Source: Candidatus Rokuibacteriota bacterium (GTDB lineage Bacteria > Methylomirabilota > Methylomirabilia > Rokubacteriales > CSP1-6). Taken from it: a DNA stretch of 44,937 nt. Below the pieces are notes generated by a model. That model was not told where the DNA came from. It searched no databases and saw only the letters and a list, made by a program, of their open reading frames with translations. Below, piece by piece: positions 633-29,589 of this stretch (positions are counted from its first letter, which is position 1; the number at the start of each line of letters is the position of its first letter). A program made the position numbers and the translations under genes. The stretch lies in contig JBBIIW010000003.1 of NCBI GenBank assembly GCA_037446305.1, positions 1 to 44,937 on the forward strand, given 5' to 3'.

Positions 633-1130
633 CCGAGGACTTCGAGTACATCTCCCGCGCCCGCCTGGAGTTCCGCCATGGGTACCGGCACGCCTACATG
701 GAGGAGGTCCCCCAACCCGTGGTCTACGGCATGAAGGGCGGCCTGCGCGAGTATTACGGCCGCTTCGACGCGCCGCCGCTCCCCGCCACGCTGGACCACA
801 TCGTGGCTGCGGTGGCCGGTTGAATGTACGGCACGCTGGCCGGCGCCCTGGCAGGGCGCAAGATCGAGTTCGACCGGTCGTCGTATACCGCCACCGTCGA
901 GGGCCGGATCGCCGGCCGCGGCAAGACGATTGCGATCCAGTCGATCGTCATGCACTACGAGCTGGCCGTCGCCCCCCGACGCCCTCGACGCCACGCGCCG
1001 GGCGCTGGCAGCCCATCCGCAAGGGTGCCCCGCCCACGAGAGCGTCAAGAGCGCCATCGCGATCAGCTGGGATGCCCAGGTGCGGGCGGGCGACCAGGTG
1101 ATCTCGCTCAAGAGCGAGCCCTCGGCGTAG
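629..1130 (+). CDS. OsmC/Ohr-family peroxiredoxin-like protein and candidate selenoprotein. It has an in-frame TGA at 821-823 at the first conserved Cys position, and needs a 1-nt frame correction in the C6 run at 972-977.
   Basis: ORFs 629..823 and 824..1198 share one frame and are separated only by TGA: ...LDHIVAAVAG-TGA-MYGTLAGALAGRKIEF. This matches the OsmC ..LA.C....L.. motif. The C-terminal part (PDALDATRRALAAHPQGCPAHESVKSAI) is in frame 0 and carries the second conserved Cys (CP.). A GGAGGAG RBS precedes the ATG at 629. Confidence 0.6.
843..859 (+). other. Hairpin GCGCCC-tggca-GGGCGC starting 19 nt after the OsmC TGA. Candidate bacterial SECIS upper stem-loop.
   Basis: Perfect 6-bp stem with a 5-nt loop containing GG, read directly from the sequence. 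GC-rich DNA forms many such hairpins, so this is weak evidence on its own. Confidence 0.35.
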
Positions 1131-1134
1131 GCCG

Positions 1135-1885
1135 GTGGCTCCCGCGCGCTGCGCCGCGCCGCCCGCGGCTCTGCGAGGCCGCTGGAGGCCCGTGCTGAAT
1201 GACGGCCCCGCGCTGGCGGCGCCGCCGGCCGGGGCCGAGTTGCGGGCGACCGAGGAGGTGGCACGACGGCTGCCCCACCTGGCCCCGGCCAGCCGCGACA
1301 CGCGGCAGACGCGGCTCGCGTTCTGGATCAACGTGTACAGCGCGCTGGCGCTCCACGCCTTCGTCGCCCTCGGCGTCGGGCGATCGGTCTGGCAGTCCCG
1401 GGCTTCTTCTGGCGTGCGAGCTATCGGGTCGGGCCCTGGGTGCTGAACGTCGAAGAGATCGAGCACGGCATCCTGCGTGCCAACCATCGGCGGGTGCTGC
1501 CCCGCTGCCCCGCGTTCCGCCCCGGCGACCCCCGGCGGGCGCTGGCGCTGCCGGAAGTCGATCCCGCGTGCACTTCGCCCTGACGTGCGAGGCGCGTTCC
1601 TGTCCGCCCGTGCGTCTCTACCGCGCCCCGATGGTGGATGCGCAGCTCGACCTGGCGGCGCGCCACTTCGTGGCGACGGAGGTCGTCCTCGACGCCGCCG
1701 GCCGCATCGCCTGCTCGCGACTCCTCAAGTGGTACCGGTCGGACTTCGACGGCGGTGAGGGCCTGCGGGTCTTCCTGCTCCACCACCTCGACGACGGGCC
1801 GGTGCGGTCGGCGTTGCTGGCCGGCGCCCCGCCCTGCCGGACCTTCCGCCCGTACTTCTGGACGCTCCAGCATCCGCCCGCCTGA
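1135..1885 (+). pseudogene. DUF547 family protein carrying two 1-nt frameshifts, near 1397-1402 and 1563-1567.
   Basis: The DUF547 motifs are spread over three frames. AFWINVYSALALHAFV is in frame 1. GFFWRASYRVGPWVLNVEEIEHGILRAN is in frame 0. RVHFALTCEARSCPPVRLY...LLKWYRSDF is in frame 2. Both shifts sit in short C/G homopolymer runs. Confidence 0.6.
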
Positions 1886-3826: not shown

Positions 3827-4452
3827 GTGGCGGCCGTCAGCCGGGCGAGCAGCCGCGCCCGGGCGTCGCCACGCCGGCCCCGCGCCAGCAGCCGCGTCAG
3901 ATCGGGACCGAGCGCCGCGCGCCAGGCGCCGGCTGAAGGGCGGAGGCCGCCGGCCCGGATCTCGCGCCGGACGTCGGCCACGACCTCGCTCAGCACGCCG
4001 TACTCCTCCCCCAGATGACGAGCCAGCCGGTCGCGCACCGCCGAGGAGAGCGCGGGGCTGGCGCCGCCCGTGGCGACGGCCACCGCCAGCCGACCCCGGC
4101 GAAGGACGGCCGGCAGGATGAAGTCACAGCGCGCCGGGTCGTCGGCCGCGTTGACCCAGACGCCCCGCTCCCGACCTTCCCGGGCCACCGCGGCGTTGAT
4201 CGCCCCGCCGTCCGTGGCGACGAAGGCCAGCGCACATCCCGCCAGGTCGCCGGGCGCGTAGTCCCGGGCCACGTGCTCCAGGCGGCCGTCCGCGGCCAGC
4301 GCCTGCAGGCGGGCGGTCAGTCGCGGCGCGATGACGGTGACGGCGGCCTCCGCCGCCAGCAGCCCGTCGACCTTGCGCTCCGCCACCGGGCCGCCGCCGA
4401 TGACCACGCACCGGCGGCCGGTGAGGTCCACGAAGATCGGGTAGAAGCCCAC
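3817..4452 (-). CDS. Precorrin-2 dehydrogenase / sirohydrochlorin ferrochelatase (CysG N-terminal / SirC-like)
   Basis: FPIFVDLTGRRCVVIGGGPVAERKV Rossmann motif and ..VNAADDPARCDFILPA..RGRLAVAVATGGASPAL are typical of the siroheme synthase N-domain. Confidence 0.8.
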   Translation of the reverse strand: MGFYPIFVDLTGRRCVVIGGGPVAERKVDGLLAAEAAVTVIAPRLTARLQALAADGRLEHVARDYAPGDLAGCALAFVATDGGAINAAVAREGRERGVWVNAADDPARCDFILPAVLRRGRLAVAVATGGASPALSSAVRDRLARHLGEEYGVLSEVVADVRREIRAGGLRPSAGAWRAALGPDLTRLLARGRRGDARARLLARLTAATCP

Positions 4453-7248: not shown

Positions 7249-7686
7249 ATGAAGGGTGGGCTGAAGATCGGCGAGCTGGCCCGGCAGGCGGGGCTCACCG
7301 CGCGGGCCATCCGGTTCTACGAGCGCAAGCGTGTCCTGCCGCCGCCGCGACGCTCCGCGAGCGGATACCGGCTCTACGGCCCGGAGGCCGTCGAGATGCT
7401 GCGGTTCGTGAAGCAGGCGACCGGCCTGGGCCTGACACTGGCCGAGATCAGGGAGATCATCGCCATCCGCCGGGGTGGCCGCCCGCCGTGCGACCACGTC
7501 CACCAGCTGCTGCGGGCCAAGGCGGTCGAGCTGGATCGCAAGCTCGAGGACCTGGTCGCCCTCCGCCGCCGCATCCGGCAAAGTCTCGCCGCCTGGAGCC
7601 GAAGGCCGCGCGGGGCCGCCGCCGTCTGCCACCACATCGAGGGCCCGCACCGCGGCGGTGGCCTCCAGGGGCGGCGAGACGCCTGA
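7249..7686 (+). CDS. MerR-family metal-responsive transcriptional regulator
   Basis: N-terminal HTH LKIGELARQAGLTARAIRFYERKRVLPPPRRSASGYRLY. Dimerisation helix and a C-terminal Cys/His loop (PPCDHV ... AVCHHIEG). Its stop overlaps the ATPase ATG (TGATG). Confidence 0.85.
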   Translation: MKGGLKIGELARQAGLTARAIRFYERKRVLPPPRRSASGYRLYGPEAVEMLRFVKQATGLGLTLAEIREIIAIRRGGRPPCDHVHQLLRAKAVELDRKLEDLVALRRRIRQSLAAWSRRPRGAAAVCHHIEGPHRGGGLQGRRDA

Positions 7687-10121
7687 TGGCGGCCGGCAAG
7701 CTCCAGGTCAAGGTGGGCGGGATGGCCTGCTCCTTCTGCCTGGAGACGATCAGGAAGGGGCTCGGCCGGATCCCGGGGGTCAGCGAGGTCAACGTCAGCC
7801 TGGCCCACGAGGAGGCCTTGATCACCTACGACCCCGGCCGCGTCACGCCGGCGACGCTCACCGACACGCTCCGCAGCCTCGGCTATACCGTCCGGGATCC
7901 GAACAGGGTCCGCACCTTCGAGGAGGAGGAGGCCGAGCTGCGCCGGGAGCGGGAGCGCCTGATCGTCGCCGGAGCCCTGGCCTGGATCGGCCTCCTGTTC
8001 ATGCTGCTCATGTGGACCGGGCGCCACCATCCCCATGTCCACGGGATCATGGCCGGGCTCGCCGTCGCGATGGTGTTCGGGCTGGGGCTCCCCATCCTGC
8101 GCACGGCCTGGGCCTCGGTCCGCCGGCGGATCCTGAACCAGCACGTGCTGATGGAGGTGTCGGCCTTCAGCGGACTCGTGGGCGGGGTGATCGGTCTCGT
8201 GCGCCCCCAGATCTTCCCGAGTCACGAGTTCTTCGGGGTGGCGGTGTTCGTCACCGCCTACCACATCCTCGGCGGGTACGCCTCCCTGCTCGTGCGGACC
8301 CGGGCCTCGCAGGCGGTCAAGAAGCTGCTCTCGCTCCGGCCGCCGGCCGCGTGCGTCGTCCGCGACGGGGAAGCGCTCGAGGTGCCGGTCGCCGAGGTGC
8401 GGCGCGGGGACCTCGTCCGGATCCGCCCCGGTGAGCAGATCCCCGTCGACGGCGTGGTGGTGGAGGGCGCCTCGGCGGTCGACGAAAGCCTGGTCACCGG
8501 CGAGCCCCTGCCGCGCGAAAAGGTGCCCGGCCAGGAGGTCATCGGCGGCTCGGTCAACCGCCACGGCTCGCTGCTGGTGCGCGTCACGCGCGTGGGCGAG
8601 GAGAGCTTCCTCGAGCAGGTGGCGCGGCACATCCAGGAGGCGCGCGCGCTCAAACCAGGCCTCCTCCTGCTCCTGGACCGGATGCTCGAATACTTCGTCC
8701 CCGGCGTCCTCCTGGTCGGGCTGGCGGCCTTCACGCTCTGGACGCTGGGGGCCTGGGCCGTCCGGGGCGCCCCCGACTGGGAGCGGGCGGCGCTCGCCGC
8801 GCTGGCCGTGCTGGTCATGGGCTACCCGTGCGCGCTGGGGATGGCGACGCCGCTGGCCATGATCCGCGGGGGCGGCGAGGCCGCGCGCCAGGGCATCCTC
8901 ATGCGCAGCGCCGCCTCGTTCCAGGCCTTCAAGGACGTCTCGGTCGTCGTGCTCGACAAGACCGGGACGATCACCCGCGGCGAGCCCCGGGTGGTGGATG
9001 TCGTGCCGGCCGCCGGCGGGGAGGCCGACGACGTGCTGGCCCTCGCGGCCTCGGCCGAGCAGCTCTCGGAGCATCCCCTGGCCCGGGCGGTCGTCGAGGC
9101 GGCCCGGGCCAGGGGCCTTGCCCTGGAACCGGTTCACGACTTCGAGACGGTGGCGGGCAAGGGGGTGCGGGCCAGGGCCGGCGGCGAGGCGGTCCTGGTG
9201 GGGACGCTGCGGTTCCTCCGGGAGGCCGGGATCGACACCGGCCACCTCGAGACTCTGGCCGAGGCGCATGAAGCTCGCGCCCAGACGGTCATCGCGGTGG
9301 CGAGCGAGGGGCGGCCTGTCGGTCTCGTCACGCTGGCGGACACCATCAAGGCCGACGCGAAGGAGGCCATTGACCGGCTTCGCGCCGCTGGCCTGGCGCC
9401 GGTCATGATCACCGGGGACAATCCCCGAACCGCCCGGGCGGTGGCCGACCAGGTGGGCATCCAGGAGATCCGGGCCCAGGTACTGCCGCAGGACAAGGCC
9501 GCGCGCGTCCGGGAGCTGCAGCGGGCGGGCAAGCGGGTGGCGATGGTGGGAGACGGCATCAACGACGCGCCGGCCCTCACGCAGGCCGACGTGGGCCTCG
9601 CCATCGGAACCGGCACCGACATCGCGATCGAGTCGGCCGACGTGGTGCTGGTCGGGGAGCGGCTGAGCGCGGTGGTGGACGCCTACCGGAGCGCGCGGCG
9701 CACGTACGGCAAGACGGTCCAGAACCTCTCGCTGGCGTTCTCCTTCAACGGCATCGGGGTGCCCCTGGCGACCACCGGACTCGTCTCCCCCGTCTGGGCC
9801 ATGGCCGCCATGGCCGCCAGCGTGACGGCCGTGCTCCTGAACTCGTTCCTGGGCCGGCTGGTCCCGCCGCTCCGCCGGCCGAAGCCCACGGCCCGACAGG
9901 TGACGCTCTTCGTACCGAGCCTCCGCTGCCAGGGGTGCGTGAACACCCTCCGCGACGCGCTCGGGAAGCTGCCGATCGTGGTGGGGGTCGAGGGCGACCC
10001 CGTGAGCAAGCAGCTGGTGGTGACCGTGCGGGACGGCCAGGGGCGGGTGACGGCGGTGGAGGAGGAGATCACCCGGCTCGGCCACGTGGTGGGCGAGCAG
10101 GCGCGTGAGGTGCGTTCATGA
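7686..10121 (+). CDS. Heavy-metal translocating P1B-type ATPase with an N-terminal HMA domain (GMACSFC) and a C-terminal HMA-like domain (LRCQGC)
   Basis: DKTGT phosphorylation site, TGDN, GDGINDAP, TGEP actuator motif, and membrane motif VMGYPCALGMATP in place of the usual CPC. Confidence 0.9.
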   Translation: MAAGKLQVKVGGMACSFCLETIRKGLGRIPGVSEVNVSLAHEEALITYDPGRVTPATLTDTLRSLGYTVRDPNRVRTFEEEEAELRRERERLIVAGALAWIGLLFMLLMWTGRHHPHVHGIMAGLAVAMVFGLGLPILRTAWASVRRRILNQHVLMEVSAFSGLVGGVIGLVRPQIFPSHEFFGVAVFVTAYHILGGYASLLVRTRASQAVKKLLSLRPPAACVVRDGEALEVPVAEVRRGDLVRIRPGEQIPVDGVVVEGASAVDESLVTGEPLPREKVPGQEVIGGSVNRHGSLLVRVTRVGEESFLEQVARHIQEARALKPGLLLLLDRMLEYFVPGVLLVGLAAFTLWTLGAWAVRGAPDWERAALAALAVLVMGYPCALGMATPLAMIRGGGEAARQGILMRSAASFQAFKDVSVVVLDKTGTITRGEPRVVDVVPAAGGEADDVLALAASAEQLSEHPLARAVVEAARARGLALEPVHDFETVAGKGVRARAGGEAVLVGTLRFLREAGIDTGHLETLAEAHEARAQTVIAVASEGRPVGLVTLADTIKADAKEAIDRLRAAGLAPVMITGDNPRTARAVADQVGIQEIRAQVLPQDKAARVRELQRAGKRVAMVGDGINDAPALTQADVGLAIGTGTDIAIESADVVLVGERLSAVVDAYRSARRTYGKTVQNLSLAFSFNGIGVPLATTGLVSPVWAMAAMAASVTAVLLNSFLGRLVPPLRRPKPTARQVTLFVPSLRCQGCVNTLRDALGKLPIVVGVEGDPVSKQLVVTVRDGQGRVTAVEEEITRLGHVVGEQAREVRS

Positions 10122-10657
10122 GAACGTGGGTATGGACGGCGATCATCGTGGCCGCCCTGGCAACCGGGTACGTGGCCGGGTATGTCGTCAGGACCCCGGC
10201 CGGCGGCGGCATGGCGGTGGCCGGCGTGCCGGTCGCGCCGCCCGTGAAGGGCTACGCCGAAGGGCAAACGATTCACTTCCTCCACACCGAGGCGTCCGAT
10301 CCCGAGGTGGCGAAGATGTTGACGGACATGATGGGCGGCTCCCCGGTGCTGGTGGTCCCGGCCCTGGCAAAGGCTCCCGAGGTTCTCCTGGCGCCGGTCT
10401 ACGTCTTTACCAACGGGGTGAAGGGCGACGGCCCCTTCGGCTTCCAGCCCGACGTGTTCGATTCGCCACCGGGCACCGAGGGCTATCGGCCTCTGCGGAC
10501 GGTGCACCTCGTCCGATGGACGAACGAGGGCGCTGCGCGTGAGCTGAAGGCCGTGACGGAGGTGAAGGCGGCGGCGATGGCGGGCGACGTGACGATCGCG
10601 CAGTCCGGCATCGTCGTCAACATGCCGATGATGACGTGGCCGGGCGGCCGCCGCTGA
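10118..10657 (+). CDS. Membrane-anchored hypothetical protein, translationally coupled (ATGA) to the ATPase
   Basis: N-terminal TM helix WVWTAIIVAALATGYVAGYVV followed by a soluble domain. No family recognised with confidence. Confidence 0.6.
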   Translation: MRTWVWTAIIVAALATGYVAGYVVRTPAGGGMAVAGVPVAPPVKGYAEGQTIHFLHTEASDPEVAKMLTDMMGGSPVLVVPALAKAPEVLLAPVYVFTNGVKGDGPFGFQPDVFDSPPGTEGYRPLRTVHLVRWTNEGAARELKAVTEVKAAAMAGDVTIAQSGIVVNMPMMTWPGGRR

Positions 10658-10742
10658 GGCGGGCGAACCAGGTGAGGCGCTCCCCGGTAGAGGACGTTCA
10701 GATCCGGGCGGCGGTGGCCGACACCGGGTGCCGGGTCGCCTG

Positions 10743-11030
10743 ATGAACGCGGCGCGGCTCCTGGTCGAGATCCTCACCGCCCCCGGCTGAGGCAAGTGCG
10801 AGGAGGCCAGGCGGCTGGTCTTCAAGGCGATCGAGATGGCGAGGGGACGCTTCACCGACCTCGAGGTGCGGGAGTGGAACCTGGCCGAGCACCCCGAGCT
10901 CGGGCCCCGGTACGGCGTGATGGCGACGCCAGCCGTCGTGATCAATGGCCGGCTCGAGTTCCGCGGGGTGCCCAGGGAAGCGGCGCTGCTCGAGCGGCTC
11001 GAGGCCGCCCGAAGCAGGGCCGGCGGCTGA
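10743..11030 (+). CDS. Small thioredoxin-fold protein (redox-active disulfide protein 2 / Thioredoxin_3-like). In-frame TGA at 10788-10790 gives a U-G-K-C motif. Candidate selenoprotein.
   Basis: ATG 10743 is in frame with ORF 10836..11030. Read through the TGA: MNAARLLVEILTAPG-TGA-GKCEEARRLVFKAIE...YGVMATPAVVINGRLEFRGVP. The TGA sits at the first Cys of the family's PGCxxC motif. Confidence 0.65.
10802..10823 (+). other. Hairpin GGAGGCCAG-gcgg-CTGGTCTTC starting 11 nt after the TGA. Candidate bacterial SECIS.
   Basis: 9-bp stem (two G-U pairs) with a 4-nt G-rich loop. The 11-nt spacing from UGA matches the minimal E. coli fdhF SECIS geometry. Confidence 0.45.
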
Positions 11031-11033
11031 GCC

Positions 11034-11891
11034 ATGAGGGAGGCGCCGCGCCCCACCGGCCACGAGCCGGCCCCGGTTGCGGTGGCCGGGCCGCGGCGGC
11101 AGTCAGCGTCTGCGGTAACGCTCCTGGCCGCGCTCGGCGGCCTCGGGCTCCTGGCGCTCGTCGGGTGGGTGGCGTGGAACCAGGGAGTCCTGGTCGGTCT
11201 CCGGTGGGCGGCCTTCGAGGCGCCGCTCGCGCTCGCCGCCTTCGGCTTCATCGCCGGGGTCGGCGCGTTCTTCGCGCCGTGCGCGTTCGCGCTGTTTCCC
11301 GGCTCCATCTCGTACTCCCTGACGTCGGTCGGCCCCGGACGCGAGAGCGTCGGGCACGCGCTGGCCCTCGGCGCCAGCTGCGCCGGCGGGAGCGCACTCT
11401 TCTTCGCGCTGACCGGCCTGGCGATCACGCTCGTCGGTGGATCGATCGCGCCGTACCTGATCGCCACCAAGCCGGCGATCGCACTCGCCGTGGTGCTCCT
11501 CGGCCTGGTGCTGGTCGCCGACGTGCGCCTGCCGTCGGTCGGCGGGCCGATCGGCCGCATCGGGGCCGGACTCCCGCCCGCGGCCGGCCTCGTCCTCTAC
11601 GGGTTCGGCTACGCGCTGGCCTCCACGGGCTGCACGCTCCCCATCTACGTCTCGATCGTCGTGCTGCCGCTGACGAGCGGCTTCGCCGGGGCAGCGCTGC
11701 TCACCTTCGCCAGCTTCGCGTCGGCGATGGCCCTGATGATGCTCCTCACGAGCCTCCTGGTGGGGCTCGCCAGGGCGAGCCGGCTTCGCCGGCTCCAGGC
11801 CTCGACGGTCTGGATCAAGCGGGCGAGCGGGGCGATCCTGATCGCGGCGGGACTCTACCTCGGCTACTACTACGTCGCAGCGGGGATGTGA
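11034..11891 (+). CDS. ccdA: CcdA/DsbD-family transmembrane thiol:disulfide electron transporter
   Basis: Multi-TM protein with the two membrane-embedded Cys motifs FFAPCAFALFP and STGCTLP. It starts 3 nt after the thioredoxin-like gene. Confidence 0.8.
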   Translation: MREAPRPTGHEPAPVAVAGPRRQSASAVTLLAALGGLGLLALVGWVAWNQGVLVGLRWAAFEAPLALAAFGFIAGVGAFFAPCAFALFPGSISYSLTSVGPGRESVGHALALGASCAGGSALFFALTGLAITLVGGSIAPYLIATKPAIALAVVLLGLVLVADVRLPSVGGPIGRIGAGLPPAAGLVLYGFGYALASTGCTLPIYVSIVVLPLTSGFAGAALLTFASFASAMALMMLLTSLLVGLARASRLRRLQASTVWIKRASGAILIAAGLYLGYYYVAAGM

Positions 11892-11910
11892 CGTGACGGA
11901 GGGAGGATTC

Positions 11911-12243
11911 ATGCGACCTCTTCATCTGGCGCTCGCGCTGACGATCACCGTGGCCGCCTGGCTCGTGCCCCACCTGGCGGACGCCGGTCTGAAGGTCGTG
12001 ACGATCGACGTGCGGGGCATGGTGTGCCGGGGCTGACCGGCCACCATCGCCACAGCCTTGGAGAGGCTGCCGGGCGTGAAGCGCGCGGCGGTGGTGCTGG
12101 AGACGAGACAGGCCCGAGTGACGTACGACGACAAGAAGCAGACACCGGAGAAGCTCGCCGCGGCCATCGATATGCTGGGCTTCAAGGCATCGGTCCGTTC
12201 GGTCGCCGGGGCGCCGGCGGCGGAGGCGCCGGCCGGTCGTTGA
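11911..12243 (+). CDS. Secreted MerP-like heavy-metal-associated (HMA) protein. In-frame TGA at 12034-12036 gives GMVC-R-G-U. Candidate selenoprotein.
   Basis: ATG 11911 has a GGAGGGAGG RBS and is in frame with ORF 12058..12243. Signal peptide MRPLHLALALTITVAAWLVPHLADA, then LKVVTIDVRGMVCRG-TGA-PATIATALERLPGVKRAAVVLE. The TGA replaces the second Cys of GMxCxxC. Confidence 0.65.
12053..12069 (+). other. Hairpin CAGCCT-tggag-AGGCTG starting 16 nt after the TGA. Candidate bacterial SECIS.
   Basis: Perfect 6-bp stem with a 5-nt loop containing GG. Confidence 0.4.
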
Positions 12244-12285
12244 GGCATGGCGAGCGTCACGCTTTCGGTTTCGGGGAGGACGGGC

Positions 12286-13635
12286 ATGGAACGCGGGTAT
12301 GACCTGGTCGTGGTGGGAACGGGCGTGGCGTCGGCCGTCGCCTCCCGGTGCCGGGAGGCGGGCTGGACGGTGGCGGTCGTCGACTCGCGCCCCTTCGGCG
12401 GCACCTGCGCGCTGCGAGGCTGCAACCCCAAGAAGATGCTCGTGAGCGCGGCGGAGGCCATCCATGCCGCCTCCCGCCTGGCCGGCAAGGGCGTGCGCGC
12501 CGACGGCCTGACGATCGACTGGCCGGCGCTCGTGCGCTTCAAGCGAACGGCGACCGACCCGGTGCCCGCGCGGACCGAGCAGACATGGGCGCAGGCCGGG
12601 GTGGAGATGTTCCACGGCCGGGCCCGCTTCGTCGGACCCACGACGCTGGCCGTGGGAGATGATCGCCTCACCGGCACCCGTGTGCTGATCGCCGCCGGCG
12701 CCATGCCCCGACGGCTGCCGTTCGCCGGGGCCGAGCTGCTGACGACGAGCGAGCAGTTCCTGGAGCTGGACGCGCTCCCGACCCGGCTGCTGTTCGTGGG
12801 CGGCGGATACATCTCCTTCGAGTTCGCCCACGTGGCCGCCCGCGCCGGGGCGGAGGTGACGATTCTCCACCGGGGGGACCGGGCCCTGGAGGGGTTCGAC
12901 CCCGACCTGGTGGACCTGCTGGTCAGGCGGACCCGGGAGCTCGGCGTCCGGGTCGAGCTGGCCACGGAGGTGCGGGGCGTCGAGCGGAGCGACGGCGGTC
13001 TGATCGTCCGGGCGCTGGCGGGGGGTCGCGAGCGCCGCTTCGAGGCCGACCTGGCGATCCACGGGGCCGGACGCGCCCCGGAGATCGATGACCTCGACCT
13101 CGAGGCGGCGGGGGTGAAGCGCGAACGGCGGGGCGTCACCGTGAACGACTTCCTGCAGAGCGTGTCCAACCCGGCGGTGTACGCAGCCGGCGACGCCGCG
13201 GCCAGCGGGGGCCCGCCGCTGACCCCCAAGGCCGCCCACGACGCCGAGGTGGTGGCCTGGAACCTCCTGCACGGCAACCAGCGCCGGCCGAACTACGAGG
13301 GCCTGGCCTCCGTCGTGTTCACCGTGCCGCCGCTGGCCTCGGCGGGCCTGGGGGAGGCCGCGGCCCGGGCCCGGGGCCTCCGATTCCGCGTCCGCTGGCA
13401 GGAGACCTCGCAGTGGTTCAGCGCCCGACGCCTGGCCGAGACGGGCGCCGGCTTCAAGGTGCTGGTCGAGGAGGGCAGCGGCCGCATCCTCGGCGCGCAC
13501 CTGTTCGGGCCCCACGCCGACGAGGTCATCAACACCTTTGCCGTCGCCATCCGGGCCGGCATCCCGGCCGACGAGCTCCGGCAGGCCCTGTTCGCCTACC
13601 CGACCAGCAGCGCGGACATCCCCTTCATGCTCTGA
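12286..13635 (+). CDS. Class I pyridine nucleotide-disulfide oxidoreductase (glutathione reductase / MerA-core-like flavoprotein)
   Basis: YDLVVVGTGVAS FAD motif, redox-active GGTCALRGCNPKK, a second Rossmann motif LLFVGGGYISFEFA, and AAGD. C-terminal motif AYPTSSAD in place of HPTSSE. The ATG at 12286 with a GGGGAGGA RBS is preferred over 12247. Confidence 0.85.
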   Translation: MERGYDLVVVGTGVASAVASRCREAGWTVAVVDSRPFGGTCALRGCNPKKMLVSAAEAIHAASRLAGKGVRADGLTIDWPALVRFKRTATDPVPARTEQTWAQAGVEMFHGRARFVGPTTLAVGDDRLTGTRVLIAAGAMPRRLPFAGAELLTTSEQFLELDALPTRLLFVGGGYISFEFAHVAARAGAEVTILHRGDRALEGFDPDLVDLLVRRTRELGVRVELATEVRGVERSDGGLIVRALAGGRERRFEADLAIHGAGRAPEIDDLDLEAAGVKRERRGVTVNDFLQSVSNPAVYAAGDAAASGGPPLTPKAAHDAEVVAWNLLHGNQRRPNYEGLASVVFTVPPLASAGLGEAAARARGLRFRVRWQETSQWFSARRLAETGAGFKVLVEEGSGRILGAHLFGPHADEVINTFAVAIRAGIPADELRQALFAYPTSSADIPFML

Positions 13636-13810: not shown

Positions 13811-14521
13811 GTGCACGGTTCCCCGATGAGCGCGATGAACACGGCGGCGCCGGTGGCGGCGGCCCGCCCTCGCGGCGGCAGCCCAAACGAGCCGCGCGAC
13901 TGGCAGGCCGAGTTCGAGCGGTCGGTCCTGGTGCACCGGGACTGGCTGCATCGCCGCGCGCTCAAGCTGTGCCGGAATCCGGCGGATGCCGAGGATCTGG
14001 TCCAGGAGACGTACCTCCGCGCCTTCCGGCGCTTCGACAGCTTCACTCCCGGCACGAACTGTGGCGCCTGGCTGGCCACGATCTTGCGAAACACGTTCCT
14101 CAACCTTGTCACCCGGCAGACCCGCGAAGCGCCGGGACGGGACGCGACCACGGTGGAGCGCGAGCTGGCCTTGCGGGGGGAACTGGCGCCGGACCCGGAG
14201 CAGGAGCGCGTGCGCCACGTCATCGACGACCGGCGGCTGGCCGACGCCGTCGAGGCTCTTCCCGGAAAGCTCCGGTGGGCCGTGATCCTGGCGGACGTCG
14301 AGGAGTGCTCCTACCGCGAGATCGCCGAGATCTGCGGGGTGCCGGTCGGCACGGTGATGTCCCGCCTGTTCCGGGGGCGCCGGCGCCTCCGGAGGGCCTT
14401 GCGGAACGGCCGCGCGGACGCGCCGCCAGGGGCGCTTGCTGCTTCCCGTCCGCCTGTCGGCGGAGCCTCCCGGCCGCGGCGCCGGCCACGCTACCGGCAG
14501 CCTCAGCCCGCCAGCCGGTAG
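13811..14521 (+). CDS. ECF (group 4) RNA polymerase sigma factor
   Basis: Region 2 (DAEDLVQETYLRAFRRFDSF...GAWLATILRNTFLN) and region 4 (LPGKLRWAVILADVEECSYREIAEICGVPVGTVMSRLFRGRRRL). The ATG at 13826 is an alternative start. Confidence 0.8.
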   Translation: MHGSPMSAMNTAAPVAAARPRGGSPNEPRDWQAEFERSVLVHRDWLHRRALKLCRNPADAEDLVQETYLRAFRRFDSFTPGTNCGAWLATILRNTFLNLVTRQTREAPGRDATTVERELALRGELAPDPEQERVRHVIDDRRLADAVEALPGKLRWAVILADVEECSYREIAEICGVPVGTVMSRLFRGRRRLRRALRNGRADAPPGALAASRPPVGGASRPRRRPRYRQPQPASR

Positions 14522-20628: not shown

Positions 20629-20925
20629 CATCGCGCTCGGCACGGCGCCCGACCGGCGGGGAGCCTGTCCCGGTAACGGGCCGGCCGTCTCGGCGTTTGC
20701 GGAGATAGATGCGCGAGAGAGGCGGCGAGGAGCGGCTGACTCATGCGACGGCGGGTCGTGCTGACGGGCTCCTGGGCGCCGTCGCAGCCGGCGGGCTCGC
20801 GGGCGCCGTCGCCCTCAGGGGCACGTGACCGGCGTCCTGACCCGCCCGGGTGAGGCCGGGCCCCGGGAGGGCTCCTCGGCGTGAGGAGGGTGGAGGCGGA
20901 CGGCGGGGCGTCCTGGGCGCCGCCA

Positions 20926-20953
20926 AAACTTTTCTTCGGAGGGAAGCGAATAC
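20926..20953 (+). promoter_or_regulatory. ECF-type promoter candidate P2: AAACTT-N15-CGAATAC
   Basis: Same architecture as P1, P3 and P4. It lies in the only AT-richer patch of the intergenic region and ends 9 nt before the GTG at 20962. Confidence 0.55.
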
Positions 20954-20961
20954 CAATTACC

Positions 20962-21516
20962 GTGAGGACCGACGAGGAGCTGATGGCGAGGGTGGCCGAG
21001 GGCGACTGGGACGCCTTCGAGCTACTCCTCGCCCGCGTCGAGACGCCCCTGTTCGCGTTTCTCCACCGGCTCGGGGCACGCCCGGACATCGTTCAGGATC
21101 TCGCTCAGGAGGTGATGCTGCGGCTCTACGAGCACCGTCGCCGTTACGACCCCGAGCGCCCCTTCCGGCCTTGGCTCTTCGGCATCGCCGTCAACGTCTG
21201 GAAGGACTCACGGCGGCGCGGAGCCCGCGAGCATGCCGGCCTCGAGCGCCTCTGGCTGACAGGCGAGGACGAGGCGCCGGTGCCAGAGCCCGACCAGCGG
21301 GCCCAGGTGCTGGAGGACGCCGAGGCGGTGCGCCGCGCGGTCCAGGCGCTGCCGGAGGCCGAACGGGTGCCGCTGATCCTGCGGCACTACCACGGGCTCT
21401 CCTATGCGGAAGTCCAAGAAGTCCTGCGGATCCCTCTCGGGACGGTGAAGACCCGGATCCATGTCGCAGTCCAGAAAGTGCGCGCCGCCTGTCAGGCAAT
21501 GTCCAGGACGGTGTGA
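20962..21516 (+). CDS. ECF RNA polymerase sigma factor
   Basis: Region 2 (DIVQDLAQEVMLRLYEHRRRYDPERPFRPWLFGIAVNV) and region 4 (LPEAERVPLILRHYHGLSYAEVQEVLRIPLGTVKTRIH). The ATG at 20983 is an alternative start. Confidence 0.8.
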   Translation: MRTDEELMARVAEGDWDAFELLLARVETPLFAFLHRLGARPDIVQDLAQEVMLRLYEHRRRYDPERPFRPWLFGIAVNVWKDSRRRGAREHAGLERLWLTGEDEAPVPEPDQRAQVLEDAEAVRRAVQALPEAERVPLILRHYHGLSYAEVQEVLRIPLGTVKTRIHVAVQKVRAACQAMSRTV

Positions 21517-21532
21517 AAGCCAGGACGGTGGG

Positions 21533-22378
21533 ATGATGCCCGGATGTCGGGATGCCCGAGAACGGATGGTCGATCACGTGTACGGCGAGCTGGCGGCCGA
21601 CCAGGCCGCCGACCTCGATGTCCATCTCGACACGTGTCATGGCTGTCGGGAGGAATGGGAGCGGTTGCGTCGCGACCTGGCGAGGCTGGACGCGTGGACG
21701 GCGCCGCTCCCACCCAGGAGCCTTCGGGACCGTGTCCTCGCCGACCTGGCGCGCCGGCGCGCCGAGGCGGCCGAGCGTTCCTTGGTCGCCTCCCGCCCGG
21801 AGCGAGTGGTGGCCGCGACCCTGTTGGGCGCCTTGGCGGCGGGGATCTCGCTGCTACTCGTGTCGGGCGTGGGATCCGGAGCCCTACCGCCGGTCGGGTT
21901 CGGCGTCGTGGGCGCCGTGTGGGCGACGTTCTACGCGGGCGCGCTCGTCCTGGCGGGATCCCGCCCCTTCGGCGCGGCGTCTCGGGCAGCTCTGACCGGC
22001 GCCGGGATCGCGATGATCCTCGCGGCGCCCCTGGCGATCCCGAGGGTGGTCGAGGTCTGTGCCCGCCTGGTGCAGGGAGCCTCCGGCACCATGGCGTTCG
22101 CGGTCGTGGTGATGGTCGTCGCTGTCGGATACACCGCTGGTCCGTTGCTCATCGGGGGGCTGGCCTTCCGGGGGCCCACGACCGGCGGTGGGCTGGCCGA
22201 AGGGGTGAAGCGGTCTGCGCTCTACGCGTTACTGGTCGCGCCTGCGGTGTACATCCAGTGCCTGTCCCAGCCGCTCGACGTCACCGCCGTCTGGATGGCG
22301 GGGGCGATTCTCGGCGCGGCGCTGGCCGGGCCGCTGAGCCTCCACCTGCGCGGCAGGTGGGCCGCGAGCCCCGCCTGA
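21533..22378 (+). CDS. zf-HC2 anti-sigma factor with a polytopic membrane C-terminal domain
   Basis: Lies immediately downstream of the ECF sigma. HLDTCHGCREEW zinc-finger motif, then about six hydrophobic segments. Confidence 0.75.
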   Translation: MMPGCRDARERMVDHVYGELAADQAADLDVHLDTCHGCREEWERLRRDLARLDAWTAPLPPRSLRDRVLADLARRRAEAAERSLVASRPERVVAATLLGALAAGISLLLVSGVGSGALPPVGFGVVGAVWATFYAGALVLAGSRPFGAASRAALTGAGIAMILAAPLAIPRVVEVCARLVQGASGTMAFAVVVMVVAVGYTAGPLLIGGLAFRGPTTGGGLAEGVKRSALYALLVAPAVYIQCLSQPLDVTAVWMAGAILGAALAGPLSLHLRGRWAASPA

Positions 22379-22453
22379 AGGCAGGGGCGCGCCAGCTGTC
22401 GCGACGACCGCGGCGGTCGCGCCGACCCAGGGGGGGCCCTCCTCGCAGCGCGA

Positions 22454-22481
22454 AAACCCTCTGCCGGTCGGCGGCGAATAC
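22454..22481 (+). promoter_or_regulatory. ECF-type promoter candidate P3: AAACCC-N15-CGAATAC
   Basis: Exact copy of the motif, ending 9 nt before the ATG at 22490 of the TolC-like gene. This implies a leaderless or very short-leader mRNA. Confidence 0.6.
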
Positions 22482-22489
22482 GTGTTGGG

Positions 22490-23884
22490 ATGTGGGGGCC
22501 TGTCGTCCAAGCGGCGAGAGTGGCGGTCCTGCTTGCCGGTCTGGGACTCCTGGGCGCCGCCGGCCCCGGGCTCGCACAGCCCCCGGAACCGGAGAAGCTG
22601 ACTCTCGACGAGGTCGTCGATCTCGCGCTGGCGAGGAACGCCGCGGTGCGAGCGGCCGCGCGCGAGGTCGAGGCTGCGGCCAAAGCCCACGCGGCCTCCC
22701 GCGGCCGCCTGTGGCCGTTCGCCGACATCTTCGGCGACTGGCAGTACTCGGGCCCCGACGAGGAGAACAAGACCCGGCTGCTCGCCAATATCGGCCGCAT
22801 GCCGAAACTCGGACCAACGCTGAGCGACAACCAGCCCATCGGCGGCATCCCGCGCCGGGAATTCGACCACAACCTCTACGCGGTTGGGGTCCGGGTCACC
22901 TACCCTCTCTACGTCGGGGGTCGGATCGTCGCCGAGATTGAAGCCAACCGCCTCTTGACCCTGCTTGCGAGAGAGCGGGCGACGCAGACCGTGGACGAGC
23001 TGATCTTCAACCTCAGCAGCACCTTCTACAGCATCCTGCGGCTCCAGGAGAACGCCAGGGCCACCGAGGCCAGCGTCCGGGCTCTCCAGGAGGCCCAGAA
23101 GAACATCCGCGCGCTGGTCGAAGTGGGGCGGCTCCCGCGGGCCGATCTCTTCAAGGTGAACACCCGTCTGGCGGCCGTCCGCCAGGAGCTGATCAAGGTG
23201 CGGAACGAGGTGGAGCTCGCGCACGCCGTCCTCAAGACGCTCATGGGGCTCGAGGTCACGGAGCCGCTGGGCGTAAAGGGGGCGCTGGGCAGCGAGCCCG
23301 TGGCCGTCGACCTGCCACTCGACCTCAGCGAGGCCGAACGGCGCCGGCCCGAGCTGCAGGCGGCGCGCCGTGCGGTCGAGGTCCAGGCGCAGCGCGTCCG
23401 GATCGCCCGGGGGGCCCGGCTTCCCCGGGTGGACGCGAGGGCCCAGTACGCGGGGGGAGCCGGGGAGTCGGATTTCGGGAAGCCGCTGGGTGACTTCGTC
23501 GTCGGCGTGAACATCTCGATCCCGATCTTCACCGGTGGCCAGCTCCAGGCCCGGATCGCCGAGGAGGAGGCCCGGCTGGCCCGCGCTCGGGAGGCGTTGG
23601 AGAAGGCGCGGCTCGACGTGCAGCTGGACGTGCAGACCGCCCACCTCGCCCTCGTCGAATCGAGCGAGCGGATCAGGGCGGCACAGGTGGCCCTGGAGGA
23701 CGCGCGCGAGGCGCTGCGGGTGGAGCAGCTCAAAACCCAGGTCGGCCGAGGCATCGTCGAGGACCTGCTCGACGCCCAGGCGGCGGAGCTCCAGGCGCAG
23801 ACCAACTACACGCGCGCGCTCGCCGACTACAACACGGCGTTGGTGGCAAGGCGGAAGGCGATCGGGCGCGTCCGGGAGCCGTAG
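22490..23884 (+). CDS. TolC-family outer-membrane efflux protein
   Basis: Signal peptide, then LTLDEVVDLALARNAAVRAA and two OEP repeats with typical coiled-coil segments. Confidence 0.85.
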   Translation: MWGPVVQAARVAVLLAGLGLLGAAGPGLAQPPEPEKLTLDEVVDLALARNAAVRAAAREVEAAAKAHAASRGRLWPFADIFGDWQYSGPDEENKTRLLANIGRMPKLGPTLSDNQPIGGIPRREFDHNLYAVGVRVTYPLYVGGRIVAEIEANRLLTLLARERATQTVDELIFNLSSTFYSILRLQENARATEASVRALQEAQKNIRALVEVGRLPRADLFKVNTRLAAVRQELIKVRNEVELAHAVLKTLMGLEVTEPLGVKGALGSEPVAVDLPLDLSEAERRRPELQAARRAVEVQAQRVRIARGARLPRVDARAQYAGGAGESDFGKPLGDFVVGVNISIPIFTGGQLQARIAEEEARLARAREALEKARLDVQLDVQTAHLALVESSERIRAAQVALEDAREALRVEQLKTQVGRGIVEDLLDAQAAELQAQTNYTRALADYNTALVARRKAIGRVREP

Positions 23885-23902
23885 CCAGGAGGGCGGAGGG
23901 CG

Positions 23903-25453: not shown

Positions 25454-25486
25454 GGCTGGCGCACATCGGCTGAAGGAGCGCCGCGC

Positions 25487-29074: not shown

Positions 29075-29090
29075 CAAGAGGAGAACGGCG

Positions 29091-29576: not shown

Positions 29577-29589
29577 GGGTGGGATCCAG

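What the first reader, a model, noticed from the sequence alone, without database searches (positions are those of the whole stretch)
10743..11030. Thioredoxin_3-like protein with TGA at the first Cys of its CxxC motif, followed by a SECIS-like hairpin 11 nt downstream
The annotated ORF (10836..11030) lacks any redox motif and is too short for the fold. Extending upstream in frame to the ATG at 10743 restores a full-length protein, provided TGA at 10788-10790 is decoded: LVEILTAPG-U-GKC-EEARRL. A 9-bp hairpin with a G-rich tetraloop (10802-10823) begins 11 nt after the UGA, which is the canonical spacing of the minimal fdhF SECIS.
Basis: partly seen in the sequence, partly recalled or inferred. 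Interest (0 to 1): 0.75.

Follow-up and report, generated by a model that had tools for sequence, protein, structure and literature searches.

The report
Mis-annotated selenocysteine mini-thioredoxin gene
The small gene at 10743-11030 is a real thioredoxin-like selenoprotein whose active-site UGA was read as a stop by gene callers; it is a solid but fairly ordinary addition to the commonest class of bacterial selenoproteins, sitting in a metal-resistance operon with a second selenoprotein.

Summary
Reading from ATG 10743 through TGA 10788-10790 gives a 95-residue MJ0307-type (Pfam Thioredoxin_3) mini-thioredoxin. The UGA sits exactly on the first Cys of the CxxC motif, giving U-G-K-C.

- **Conservation of the codon:** all 65 orthologous loci where the motif is intact, plus 7 divergent homologues, carry TGA there. 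None carries TAA, TAG or TGY. The peptide upstream of the TGA is conserved while its synonymous sites vary freely.
- **Cys relatives:** Cys-form relatives at 50-53% identity read APGCxxC at the same place.
- **The hairpin:** as a single sequence it folds no better than shuffles. Comparatively it is well supported: both arms have no synonymous variation in 43 unique sequences, and two of its pairs covary once divergent homologues are added. It fits every constraint of the published bacterial SECIS model.
- **Code:** TGA is otherwise the normal stop codon in this window.
- **Context:** the gene lies in a conserved module of P1B-ATPase, (DUF7482), Sec-thioredoxin, CcdA-like membrane protein and a MerP/HMA-like protein. 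That last protein is itself a selenoprotein, with CxxU, UxxC or UxxU in different genomes.
- **Lineage:** Candidatus Rokuibacteriota.
- **Likely role (inferred):** cytoplasmic electron donor to CcdA.
- **Novelty:** new member of a known kind.

The parts
10743..11030 (+). Full-length selenoprotein gene: 95 codons including Sec at codon 16, plus its own TGA stop at 11028-11030. It encodes an MJ0307-type / Pfam Thioredoxin_3 mini-thioredoxin.
   Evidence: The peptide flanks of the TGA are conserved in 65 orthologous loci.
10788..10790 (+). UGA codon decoded as selenocysteine. It occupies the first, nucleophilic position of the U-G-K-C redox motif.
   Evidence: TGA in 65/65 orthologues and 7/7 divergent homologues. 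It aligns to the first Cys of CPHC in 1FO5 and of APGCxxC in Cys-form homologues.
10797..10799 (+). TGC codon for the resolving Cys of the UxxC motif.
   Evidence: Cys is invariant in 43 unique orthologue sequences, as TGC or TGT.
10802..10823 (+). SECIS-like hairpin. The stem pairs 10802-10810 with 10815-10823; the conserved core is the 8 bp of 10803-10822. The loop is 10811-10814 (GCGG). There are 20 nt between the UGA and the apical loop.
   Evidence: fold; no synonymous variation in the arms; covariation, consensus structure; published bSECIS model constraints, all met.
11034..11891 (+). CcdA/DsbD_TM-like membrane protein with two Cys-x-x-Pro-type motifs (C83, C200). About 7 predicted TM helices with a cytoplasmic N-terminus. 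It starts 3 nt after the thioredoxin stop codon.
   Evidence: Pfam DsbD_TM gives a weak hit on this copy. Homologues carry PF02683 and are named CcdA by NCBI and JGI. Hydropathy and charge analysis. It follows the thioredoxin gene in nearly all loci long enough to show it.
11911..12243 (+). Second selenoprotein gene: a secreted MerP/HMA-like metal-binding protein with the motif GMVCRG-U. The TGA is at 12034-12036 and a conserved hairpin lies at 12053-12069.
   Evidence: HMA; best NCBIfam hit is NF041115, the UxxU metal-binding (seleno)protein; CxxU, UxxC or UxxU in orthologues; invariant hairpin.
7488..10121 (+). Heavy-metal P1B-type ATPase carrying N-terminal and C-terminal CxxC HMA-like motifs. 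It is the first gene of the apparent operon.
   Evidence: ORF translation shows GMACSFC and LRCQGC. An ATPase lies upstream in many orthologous loci. The only promoter-like site in the region is at 7432-7460.
10118..10657 (+). DUF7482 protein between the ATPase and the thioredoxin gene. It is present in only a subset of loci.
12247..13635 (+). Pyridine-nucleotide-disulphide oxidoreductase resembling glutathione reductase or MerA, without the C-terminal Cys pair. It accompanies the module only in this window.
   Evidence: all curated cut-offs missed; no counterpart in other loci.

Best explanation
The gene at 10743-11030 encodes a 95-residue cytoplasmic mini-thioredoxin of the MJ0307 / Thioredoxin_3 type. 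Its attacking active-site residue is selenocysteine (motif U-G-K-C).

**Decoding.** UGA 10788-10790 is recoded by the bacterial Sec pathway (SelB with Sec-tRNA). The signal is an in-ORF hairpin at 10802-10823, whose apical loop begins 20 nt after the UGA and starts with G. Translation then ends at the gene's own UGA (11028-11030), which has no such hairpin downstream. Gene callers stop at the first UGA and restart at whatever start codon comes next. That produced the 61-73-aa truncated 'hypothetical proteins' seen in public databases.

**Shown here:** the in-frame TGA, its strict conservation, the translated upstream peptide, the Cys-form relatives, and the RNA-level constraint on the hairpin.

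**Inferred function.** The protein would be the cytoplasmic electron donor for the CcdA-like thiol-disulphide transporter encoded 3 nt downstream. That transporter would in turn keep the periplasmic MerP/HMA-like selenoprotein (CxxU) reduced, so that it can bind soft metals (Hg, Cu) as part of a P1B-ATPase metal-resistance module. I put about 0.9 or more on the Sec-decoding part and about 0.5 on this electron-relay role.
For: **Register**
- 1FO5 (MJ0307 thioredoxin) aligns at E = 4e-13, with CPHC on UGKC.
- Pfam Thioredoxin_3 scores 45.9 bits over residues 8-85.

**Conservation of the codon**
- TGA in 65/65 orthologous loci with the motif intact, never another stop or a Cys codon. These include 5 Candidatus Rokuibacteriota genomes.
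- TGA in 7/7 representatives of more distant clusters.

**Translation upstream of the TGA**
- The 8 codons before the TGA keep their amino acids (V/I-E/D-I-L-T-A-P-G) while using 2-4 synonymous codons each.

**Sec/Cys pair**
- P0125 and P0130 are 53% and 50% identical, align without gaps, and read APGCxxC.

**SECIS**
- Codons GAG-GAG-GCC-AGG and GTC are invariant at the nucleotide level, whereas 24/24 comparable codons elsewhere vary (p = 3e-4). The loop codon varies freely.
- Compensatory changes occur at pairs 17-34 (A-U to C-G or U-G) and 23-28 (G-C to A-U). None of 500 shuffles reaches the observed count.
- RNAalifold recovers the same 8-bp helix.
- All four bSECIS constraints are met: loop of 3-9 nt, stem of 4-16 bp, G in the first two loop positions, 16-37 nt spacing, and MFE of -7.5 kcal/mol or lower (PMC13188914).

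**Genetic code**
- TGA ends 21 of 28 genes in the window, including this one.

**Sec use by the organism**
- In the neighbouring HMA gene, TGA and TGY swap at either metal-binding Cys position among orthologues.
- A homologue of the neighbouring CcdA-like protein is labelled 'Methylomirabilota bacterium' by NCBI (P0376). That phylum is reported to include a MAG with 63 predicted selenoproteins (PMC13188914).

**Function**
- The thioredoxin, CcdA-like and HMA genes are adjacent in nearly all loci long enough to show it.
- One contig has an in-frame thioredoxin-CcdA fusion (P0298).
- The CcdA-like protein's predicted N-terminus is cytoplasmic.
- The thioredoxin has no signal peptide, whereas the HMA protein has one.
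- A Cys-form relative sits in a MerR, DsbD_TM, Trx3 operon.
- Other homologues lie next to MerR, HMA, CusF or P-type ATPase genes.
Against: - No selA, selB, selC or selD gene and no tRNA-Sec is present in the 45-kb window. The rest of the genome could not be searched.
- The hairpin's own folding energy is not better than shuffles (z = -1.15).
- Within the close orthologues there is no covariation at all, because the arms are invariant. The covarying positions in divergent homologues also change amino acids, so protein-level co-evolution cannot be fully excluded.
- One Cys-form relative (L079) retains 8 of 9 hairpin pairs. Part of the hairpin therefore follows from the conserved peptide, or is a relic.
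- The element lacks the bulged U17 of the E. coli fdhF SECIS.
- There is no Rfam match, although it is not clear that Rfam holds a bacterial SECIS model at all.
- The electron-relay function rests on gene order, one fusion and topology prediction only. This copy of the CcdA-like protein scores below Pfam's gathering threshold (20.1 against 27.1 bits).
Confidence: 0.88

Rival explanations
1. The TGA is a genuine stop. The real gene is the short downstream ORF (10836-11030 or similar), and the upstream similarity is a leader peptide or a relic.
For: Public annotation-73-aa products. The short ORF alone still passes Pfam's Thioredoxin_3 threshold at 32.3 bits.
Against: - The short product covers only profile positions 38-74 of 76. 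It lacks strand beta-1, helix alpha-1 and any redox motif.
- No start codon is conserved; called starts are L, M or V at different positions, and the Met at 10836 is T or K elsewhere.
- The upstream codons are under purifying selection in the same frame.
- The stop is always TGA, never TAA or TAG, in 72 sequences.
Confidence: 0.02
2. The gene is a pseudogene, or the TGA is a sequencing or assembly error in a normal CxxC thioredoxin (TGC to TGA).
For: Three of the fetched contigs do carry 1-nt homopolymer indels just upstream of the TGA (L007, L013, L014). This shows that errors occur in these assemblies.
Against: The identical TGA is present in independent assemblies from many projects and in lineages only about 40-50% identical at the protein level. 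The rest of the gene is intact and under purifying selection.
Confidence: 0.01
3. The UGA is read through, but not as Sec. Candidates are near-cognate suppression inserting Cys or Trp, or a lineage-wide reassignment of UGA.
For: No Sec machinery could be examined for this genome.
Against: - UGA is the main stop codon in the window, ending 21 of 28 genes including this one. That excludes reassignment.
- The recoded UGAs occur only at Cys-equivalent redox or metal-ligand positions, and swap with TGY in the HMA neighbour.
- Each recoded UGA is followed, at SECIS-type distance, by a hairpin constrained at the nucleotide level.
- The lineage is reported as selenoprotein-rich.
Confidence: 0.03
4. 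Rival on function only; Sec decoding is accepted. The selenoprotein would not be an electron donor. It would be a cytoplasmic soft-metal acceptor or chaperone, an NmerA-like Se/S chelate, that takes Hg(II) or Cu(I) handed through the Cys pairs of the CcdA-like membrane protein, or hands metal to the P1B-ATPase.
For: - Fusions of this thioredoxin type to HMA domains exist (P0137, P0121).
- Homologues neighbour MerR, CusF, HMA and P-type ATPase genes.
- The window is a metal-resistance island with a true MerA and a Cus-like RND pump.
- One homologue (L075) reads U-x-x-Y, with no resolving Cys.
Against: - The fold and the UxxC motif at the N-terminus of helix alpha-1 are those of disulphide reductases.
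- CcdA family proteins are known as electron transporters, not metal transporters (established knowledge, not tested here).
- The resolving Cys is otherwise invariant.
Confidence: 0.3

Closest known systems
MJ0307 thioredoxin of Methanocaldococcus jannaschii (PDB 1FO5; NCBIfam TIGR00411; Pfam Thioredoxin_3 PF13192)
   Same: Same size and the same single-domain minimal thioredoxin/glutaredoxin-like fold. The alignment runs end to end at E = 4e-13, and the redox motif is at the same position.
   Different: MJ0307 has CPHC; this protein has U-G-K-C. It scores 48.1 bits against the TIGR00411 cut-off of 92.75, so it is not an equivalog. It is bacterial and sits in a metal-resistance operon.
[quoted passage not shown]
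   Same: A thioredoxin fold in which Sec replaces the first Cys of CxxC, with an in-ORF bacterial SECIS. This is the commonest design among bacterial selenoproteins.
   Different: None of the dedicated selenoprotein models (NF045500, NF040730, NF047660) matched at E of 0.01 or better. TIGR02187 matched only through its C-terminal half (positions 131-208 of 209) at 32 bits against a cut-off of 185. This protein has one domain, not two.
Thioredoxin-like selenoproteins Sec.1 and Sec.2 (PF13192; Santesmasses et al. 2017, as listed in PMC13188914)
   Same: They belong to the same Pfam family, Thioredoxin_3, and are selenoproteins.
   Different: Their motifs are CxU and UxC, with one intervening residue. 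The motif here is UxxC.
Thioredoxin to CcdA/DsbD to periplasmic thiol protein electron relays (cytochrome c maturation; the ScsB/ScsC copper-tolerance system). This comparison comes from established knowledge and was not tested here.
   Same: A cytoplasmic thioredoxin-type protein is encoded next to a DsbD_TM membrane protein with two Cys-Pro motifs and a secreted Cys-motif protein. The link to metal tolerance is shared.
   Different: Here both soluble partners carry Sec, and the periplasmic client is an HMA/MerP-like metal binder rather than a thioredoxin-fold protein. No biochemical evidence is available.
E. coli fdhF SECIS (upper stem-loop at nt 15-31, 11 nt after the UGA, with G23/U24 in the loop and a bulged U17; PMC8659212)
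   Same: The hairpin starts at nt 15, 11 nt after the UGA. G24 is invariant and position 23 is G or A, matching the positions of the E. coli loop purines.
   Different: There is no bulged U17; A17 pairs with U34. The stem is longer (8-9 bp) and the loop sequence is GCGG or GGCGAU rather than GGUC.

Membership tests
Pfam Thioredoxin_3 (PF13192) | Whole-protein score at or above the gathering threshold of 24.8 bits, with near full-length profile coverage | tested here: met
   45.9 bits, residues 8-85, profile positions 3-74 of 76, with Cys substituted for Sec.
Pfam Thioredoxin_3 / MJ0307-type thioredoxins | CxxC-type redox motif after strand beta-1, at the start of helix alpha-1 | tested here: met
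   U-G-K-C aligns to CPHC of 1FO5, to CPYC of 1NHO and to the motifs of the PDO C-terminal domains. It also aligns to APGCxxC of Cys-form homologues.
NCBIfam TIGR00411 (MJ0307 family thioredoxin, equivalog) | Score at or above the curated cut-off of 92.75 bits | tested here: not met
   48.1 bits. It is related but is not an equivalog member.
   31.9 bits, which is weaker than the TIGR00411 match.
Bacterial selenoprotein | An in-frame UGA conserved among orthologues, with conserved and translated flanks on both sides | tested here: met
   TGA in 65/65 orthologues plus 7/7 divergent homologues. The upstream codons show synonymous variation with a conserved peptide.
Bacterial selenoprotein | Homologues with Cys aligned at the Sec position (a Sec/Cys pair) | tested here: met
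   P0125, P0130, P0141, P0145 and P0146 carry Cys there, at 50-53% identity for the two compared. So does 1FO5.
Bacterial selenoprotein | The genome encodes selA, selB, selC (tRNA-Sec) and selD | not testable with these tools
Indirect support: a second TGA/TGY-interchanging gene lies in the same operon, and a Methylomirabilota MAG is reported with 63 selenoproteins.
Bacterial selenoprotein | Selenium actually incorporated into the protein | not testable with these tools
   This needs 75Se labelling or mass spectrometry.
Bacterial SECIS (bSECIS consensus model; Zhang and Gladyshev, as summarised in PMC13188914 Fig. 2A) | Apical loop of 3-9 nt on an upper stem of 4-16 bp | tested here: met
   Loop of 4 nt (6 nt in many orthologues) and stem of 8-9 bp.
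Bacterial SECIS (bSECIS consensus model) | At least one G in the first two loop positions | tested here: met
   The loop is GCGG. G24 is invariant in 24 diverse sequences and position 23 is G or A.
Bacterial SECIS (bSECIS consensus model) | 16-37 nt between the UGA and the apical loop | tested here: met
   20 nt (10791-10810), with identical spacing and no indels in all 72 sequences.
Bacterial SECIS (bSECIS consensus model) | MFE of -7.5 kcal/mol or lower | tested here: met
   -13.0 kcal/mol for the hairpin alone and -16.2 for the 48-nt segment.
Bacterial SECIS | Evolutionary evidence that the structure, and not only the peptide, is conserved | tested here: met
   No synonymous change in the arm codons against 24/24 variable controls (p = 3e-4). 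Eleven compensatory cells, reached by 0 of 500 shuffles. Caveats: the close orthologues show no covariation, and one Cys form keeps the hairpin.
E. coli fdhF-type SECIS | Bulged U17 together with G23/U24 in the loop | tested here: not met
   Position 17 is paired (A-U, C-G or U-G) and positions 23-24 read G/A then G.
CcdA/DsbD electron-transfer module (for the neighbouring gene and the proposed role) | A DsbD_TM domain with two conserved Cys residues in TM helices | tested here: inconclusive
   This copy scores 20.1 bits against a gathering threshold of 27.1. Most homologues carry PF02683, and some are named CcdA by NCBI or JGI. C83 (FFAPCAFALFPG) and C200 (STGCTLP) lie in predicted TM helices. 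No solved structure matched by sequence.

The most novel reading that the evidence does not exclude
The most novel reading that the evidence does not exclude is an obligately selenium-dependent, two-selenoprotein trans-membrane relay in Rokuibacteriota/Methylomirabilota. A cytoplasmic Sec-thioredoxin (UxxC, never Cys in this clade) would feed a seven-helix CcdA variant. That protein would keep a periplasmic Sec-containing MerP-like protein (CxxU, UxxC or UxxU) reduced, for capture of Hg or Cu alongside a P1B-ATPase. This would be a selenoprotein operon class not in the current catalogue of 119 families.
Probability: 0.35. Interest if true: 0.55.

Novelty: new member of a known kind. Interest (0 to 1): 0.4.

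Why it matters
- **Annotation.** The result corrects a systematic error. Every public copy found, including GenBank PYN84048.1 and PYN73019.1, is a truncated 61-73-aa 'hypothetical protein' with no active site.
- **Catalogue.** It adds a single-domain Thioredoxin_3 UxxC form, in which every close orthologue recovered has Sec and none Cys, to the list of bacterial selenoproteins.
- **Biology.** Soil and groundwater Rokuibacteriota place two selenoproteins in one metal-resistance module. This is a concrete, testable case for asking why Sec is preferred over Cys where soft metals (Hg, Cu) are handled.
- **Gene finding.** The pair of tightly conserved in-ORF hairpins can serve as training examples for SECIS detection in very GC-rich genomes, where folding energy alone does not discriminate.

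Tried and rejected
- **Single-sequence folding statistics.** They do not separate the hairpin from GC-rich background, so I switched to comparative tests.
- **Covariation among close orthologues only.** There were no double changes because the arms are invariant. Seven divergent homologues had to be added.
- **Rfam scan of 10400-12500.** It gave only chance hits, mir-3135 and sR1.
- **tRNA scan and Pfam survey of the whole window for Sec machinery.** Nothing was found.
- **Sequence search of PDB with the CcdA-like protein.** Only noise came back.
- **Cys-form homologues as a negative control for the hairpin.** The result was mixed: L078 has no stable hairpin, whereas L079 keeps 8 of 9 pairs.
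- **Literature searches.** Searches for Rokubacteria with selenocysteine, selenoprotein with CcdA, and MerP with selenocysteine found nothing describing this family or operon. Haft and Tolstoy 2025 (PMC12013261) is not held.
- **Window-wide scan for other split ORFs around TGA.** It found only the HMA gene. The other three hits are ordinary adjacent genes in the same frame.
- **The DUF547 fragment at 1102-1446.** It looks frameshifted rather than recoded, and I did not pursue it.
Full report
**1. The observation**

The frame opening at ATG 10743 reads MNAARLLVEILTAPG*GKCEEARRLVFKAIEMARGRF...AGG*. The internal stop is TGA at 10788-10790 and the resolving Cys codon is at 10797-10799. The 64-aa ORF at 10836-11030 is the product held in public databases (P0001).

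RNAfold gives a 9-bp hairpin at 10802-10823 with loop GCGG, starting 11 nt after the UGA. The hairpin alone has an MFE of -13.0 kcal/mol. By itself this fold is unremarkable for GC-rich DNA: z = -1.15, and 32 of 200 shuffles fold at least as well. With more flank the z-score turns positive. The sequence facts are therefore confirmed, but folding energy alone says nothing about whether the hairpin is meaningful.

**2. What the protein is**

With Cys substituted for the stop, the 95-residue product matches Pfam Thioredoxin_3 over residues 8-85, covering profile positions 3-74 of 76, at 45.9 bits. The annotated ORF matches only the C-terminal half, positions 38-74, at 32.3 bits.

Against solved structures the best match is the MJ0307 thioredoxin of Methanocaldococcus jannaschii (1FO5), at E = 4e-13 over residues 5-87. 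The alignment sets KVKIELFTSPMCPHCPAAKRVV against RLLVEILTAPGUGKCEEARRLV. The UGA therefore falls exactly on the first, nucleophilic Cys of CxxC.

All three are below their curated cut-offs. No dedicated selenoprotein model matched.

**3. Orthologues**

A search of 5.8 billion proteins returned 129 relatives. Of the 120 listed, all but one are 54-73 aa long and cover only the part downstream of the stop. Their first residue is L, M or V at differing positions. This is the signature of gene callers restarting after an internal stop.

Fetching the DNA gave 5 loci from Candidatus Rokuibacteriota MAGs and 64 metagenomic loci.

- In all 65 loci where the motif is intact, the codon is TGA. It is never TAA, TAG, TGC or TGT.
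- The TGA sits inside the conserved peptide (V/I)(E/D)ILTAPG-U-(G/A/N)(K/R)C-(E/Q)EAR.
- Three contigs have 1-nt homopolymer indels just upstream of the TGA. These are most simply assembly errors.
- The window's internal Met (10836) is T or K in orthologues, so it is not a conserved start.
- The eight codons before the TGA keep their amino acids while using 2-4 synonymous codons each. That stretch is therefore translated in this frame.

**4. More distant relatives**

A profile search of 1.84 billion cluster representatives found two kinds of relatives.

- *Full-length Cys forms* of 85-93 aa whose N-termini read ILTAPGCKTC, LLSAPGCANC, ILKAPGCAAC or IVSAPGCSKC. P0125 and P0130 are 53% and 50% identical to the window protein, in gapless alignments with CxxC on UGKC.
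- *Further truncated forms.* I fetched DNA for seven of these, and all seven have TGA at the same codon (LLSAPG-U-xKC).

The Sec form extends well beyond the close orthologues.

**5. The hairpin as a SECIS**

Among 43 unique orthologue sequences, the codons forming the two arms are completely invariant at the nucleotide level. These are +4 to +7 (GAG GAG GCC AGG) and +10 (GTC). The loop codon (+8) uses CGA, AGG, CGG and CGC as well as non-synonymous alternatives.

Every one of the 24 other conserved four-fold or six-fold degenerate codons in the gene uses 2-5 synonymous codons. The contrast is 3/3 against 0/24, Fisher p = 3e-4. In particular, Arg +7 is always AGG, although other Arg positions mostly use CGN.

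Within the close orthologues there is consequently no covariation. Adding the seven divergent homologues changes this:

| Pair | Variants observed |
|---|---|
| 17-34 | A-U, C-G or U-G |
| 23-28 | G-C, A-U or G-U |

- Eleven cells have changes on both sides, a count that none of 500 shuffles reaches.
- The covariation score is 0.207 against a shuffled mean of 0.145 (1 of 500 shuffles reaches it).
- 90% of cells are paired, against at most 55% in slid registers.
- RNAalifold independently returns the same 8-bp helix.

The element meets all four constraints of the published bSECIS model: a 3-9-nt loop on a 4-16-bp stem, G in the first two loop positions, 16-37 nt from UGA to loop (20 nt here), and an MFE of -7.5 kcal/mol or lower (PMC13188914). 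Its start at nt 15 and the purines at positions 23-24 coincide with the E. coli fdhF numbering (PMC8659212). The bulged U17 of that element is absent.

Three caveats apply:

- The covarying nucleotides also change amino acids.
- One Cys-form relative (L079) keeps 8 of 9 pairs, while another (L078) has no stable hairpin. Part of the structure therefore rides on the conserved peptide, or is a relic of a recent Sec/Cys switch.
- Rfam gave no match.

**6. Is UGA otherwise a stop here?**

Yes. Twenty-one of 28 confidently placed genes in the window end in TGA, including this gene itself at 11028-11030. Code reassignment is therefore excluded.

No tRNA gene of any kind and no selA, selB or selD gene lies in the window, and the rest of the genome could not be searched. 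Two indirect lines support Sec competence:

- The gene two positions downstream (11911-12243) encodes a secreted MerP/HMA-like protein reading GMVCRG-U-PATIATAL, with TGA at 12034-12036. Its best NCBIfam hit is NF041115, the 'UxxU metal-binding (seleno)protein'. Across 47 loci its motif is CxxU, UxxC or UxxU, with TGA and TGY swapping at either ligand position. An invariant hairpin, CAGCCUU-GGA-(G/A)AGGCUG at window 12053-12069, lies 23 or 32 nt from the respective UGA.
- NCBI labels a close homologue of the neighbouring CcdA-like protein 'Methylomirabilota bacterium'. A 2026 review reports a Methylomirabilota MAG with 63 predicted selenoprotein genes (PMC13188914, citing Deng et al. 2026). 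That Rokubacteria fall within that phylum in GTDB is my own knowledge and was not tested here.

**7. Context and likely mechanism**

The local gene order is as follows:

| Coordinates | Gene |
|---|---|
| 7488-10121 | P1B-type ATPase |
| 10118-10657 | DUF7482 protein |
| 10743-11030 | Sec-thioredoxin |
| 11034-11891 | CcdA/DsbD_TM-like membrane protein |
| 11911-12243 | Sec-HMA protein |
| 12247-13635 | Pyridine-nucleotide-disulphide oxidoreductase |
| 13811-14521 | ECF sigma factor |

The thioredoxin, CcdA-like and HMA genes lie next to each other in nearly all loci long enough to show it, often with the ATPase upstream. The oxidoreductase occurs only in this window.

Several observations bear on function:

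- Homologues of the membrane protein carry PF02683 and are named CcdA by JGI and NCBI.
- Hydropathy and charge distribution suggest seven TM helices with a cytoplasmic N-terminus, with Cys83 and Cys200 inside helices.
- One contig encodes an in-frame thioredoxin-CcdA fusion (P0298).
- The thioredoxin has no signal peptide, whereas the HMA protein has one.
- A Cys-form relative sits in a MerR, DsbD_TM, Trx3 operon.
- Other relatives neighbour MerR, HMA, CusF or P-type ATPase genes.
- Thioredoxin-HMA fusions exist (P0137).

From this I infer, without having shown it, that the selenoprotein is the cytoplasmic reductant of the CcdA-like transporter. That transporter would keep the periplasmic Se/S metal-binding site reduced. 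The main functional rival is that the UxxC site itself binds Hg or Cu as a chaperone.

**8. Comparison with what is known**

Thioredoxin-fold proteins with UxxC are the commonest design among bacterial selenoproteins. Sec-containing MerP, MerT, P-type ATPase and UxxU metal-binding proteins are already catalogued (PMC13188914 Table 1; PMC9312934; PMC2398784).

The catalogue lists Thioredoxin_3 members only with CxU or UxC motifs (Sec.1 and Sec.2). UxxC forms appear only for the two-domain TIGR02187 family and for GOS_C (NF045500), neither of which this protein joins. Public records annotate the orthologues as truncated hypothetical proteins. Literature searches found no description of this family or operon.

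**9. Verdict**

It is a mis-annotated selenoprotein with a well-supported SECIS, and a new member of a very well known kind. The two-selenoprotein CcdA module is a modestly novel context.

| Score | Value |
|---|---|
| Interest | 0.4 |
| Confidence in Sec decoding | about 0.9 |
| Confidence in the proposed electron-relay role | about 0.5 |

Noticed in passing
window 11911-12243 (TGA 12034-12036; hairpin 12053-12069): This is a second selenoprotein gene in the same operon. It encodes a secreted MerP/HMA-like protein reading GMVCRG-U. Orthologues carry CxxU, UxxC or UxxU, and one invariant hairpin lies at SECIS distance from both positions. The gene is split into two ORFs by ordinary ORF calling.
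   Followed up: partly
L010 953-2104 (JACXTT010120175.1); protein P0298: The thioredoxin gene runs in frame into the CcdA-like gene with no stop codon. The called product is 360 aa and carries PF13192 plus PF02683. This is either a natural fusion or an assembly error.
   Followed up: partly
proteins P0137 (170 aa) and P0121 (134 aa): These are fusions of this thioredoxin type to an HMA-like domain. P0137 carries CAFC plus an HMA domain with CEGC. They link the family to metal handling.
   Followed up: no
L079 286-2196 and L080 414-677: The Cys-form relative P0130 lies in a MerR, DsbD_TM (401 aa), Trx3 operon. It still keeps 8 of 9 base pairs of the SECIS-register hairpin, which may be a fossil SECIS after a Sec-to-Cys switch.
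   Followed up: partly
L075, about 60 nt upstream of the called gene start at 314: One divergent Sec-form homologue reads U-T-K-Y, with Tyr in place of the resolving Cys. Its hairpin is weaker (-9.8 kcal/mol).
   Followed up: no
L007 ~3960-3985, L013 ~1290-1305, L014 ~765-780: Three contigs have 1-nt indels in C/G homopolymer runs immediately upstream of the TGA, which shifts the N-terminal frame. These are probably assembly errors rather than pseudogenes.
   Followed up: partly
window 12247-13635: This pyridine-nucleotide-disulphide oxidoreductase resembles glutathione reductase or MerA but lacks MerA's C-terminal Cys pair and scores below all curated cut-offs. It follows the module only in this window and in none of the other loci. 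It could be a dedicated reductase for the Sec-thioredoxin.
   Followed up: partly
window 20854-30090 and 43019-44749: The contig is a metal-resistance island. It carries an ECF sigma with a zf-HC2 anti-sigma, a CusCBA-like OEP/HlyD/AcrB efflux system, two DUF302 proteins, and a true MerA with an N-terminal HMA domain.
   Followed up: no
window 1102-1446: An ORF matches only the first ~35 positions of DUF547 (profile 5-37 of 125) and then ends at a stop. It looks frameshifted or truncated rather than recoded.
   Followed up: no
window 10118-10657: A DUF7482 protein with an N-terminal hydrophobic segment lies between the ATPase and the thioredoxin gene. It overlaps the ATPase stop by 4 nt and is present in only a subset of orthologous loci.
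   Followed up: no
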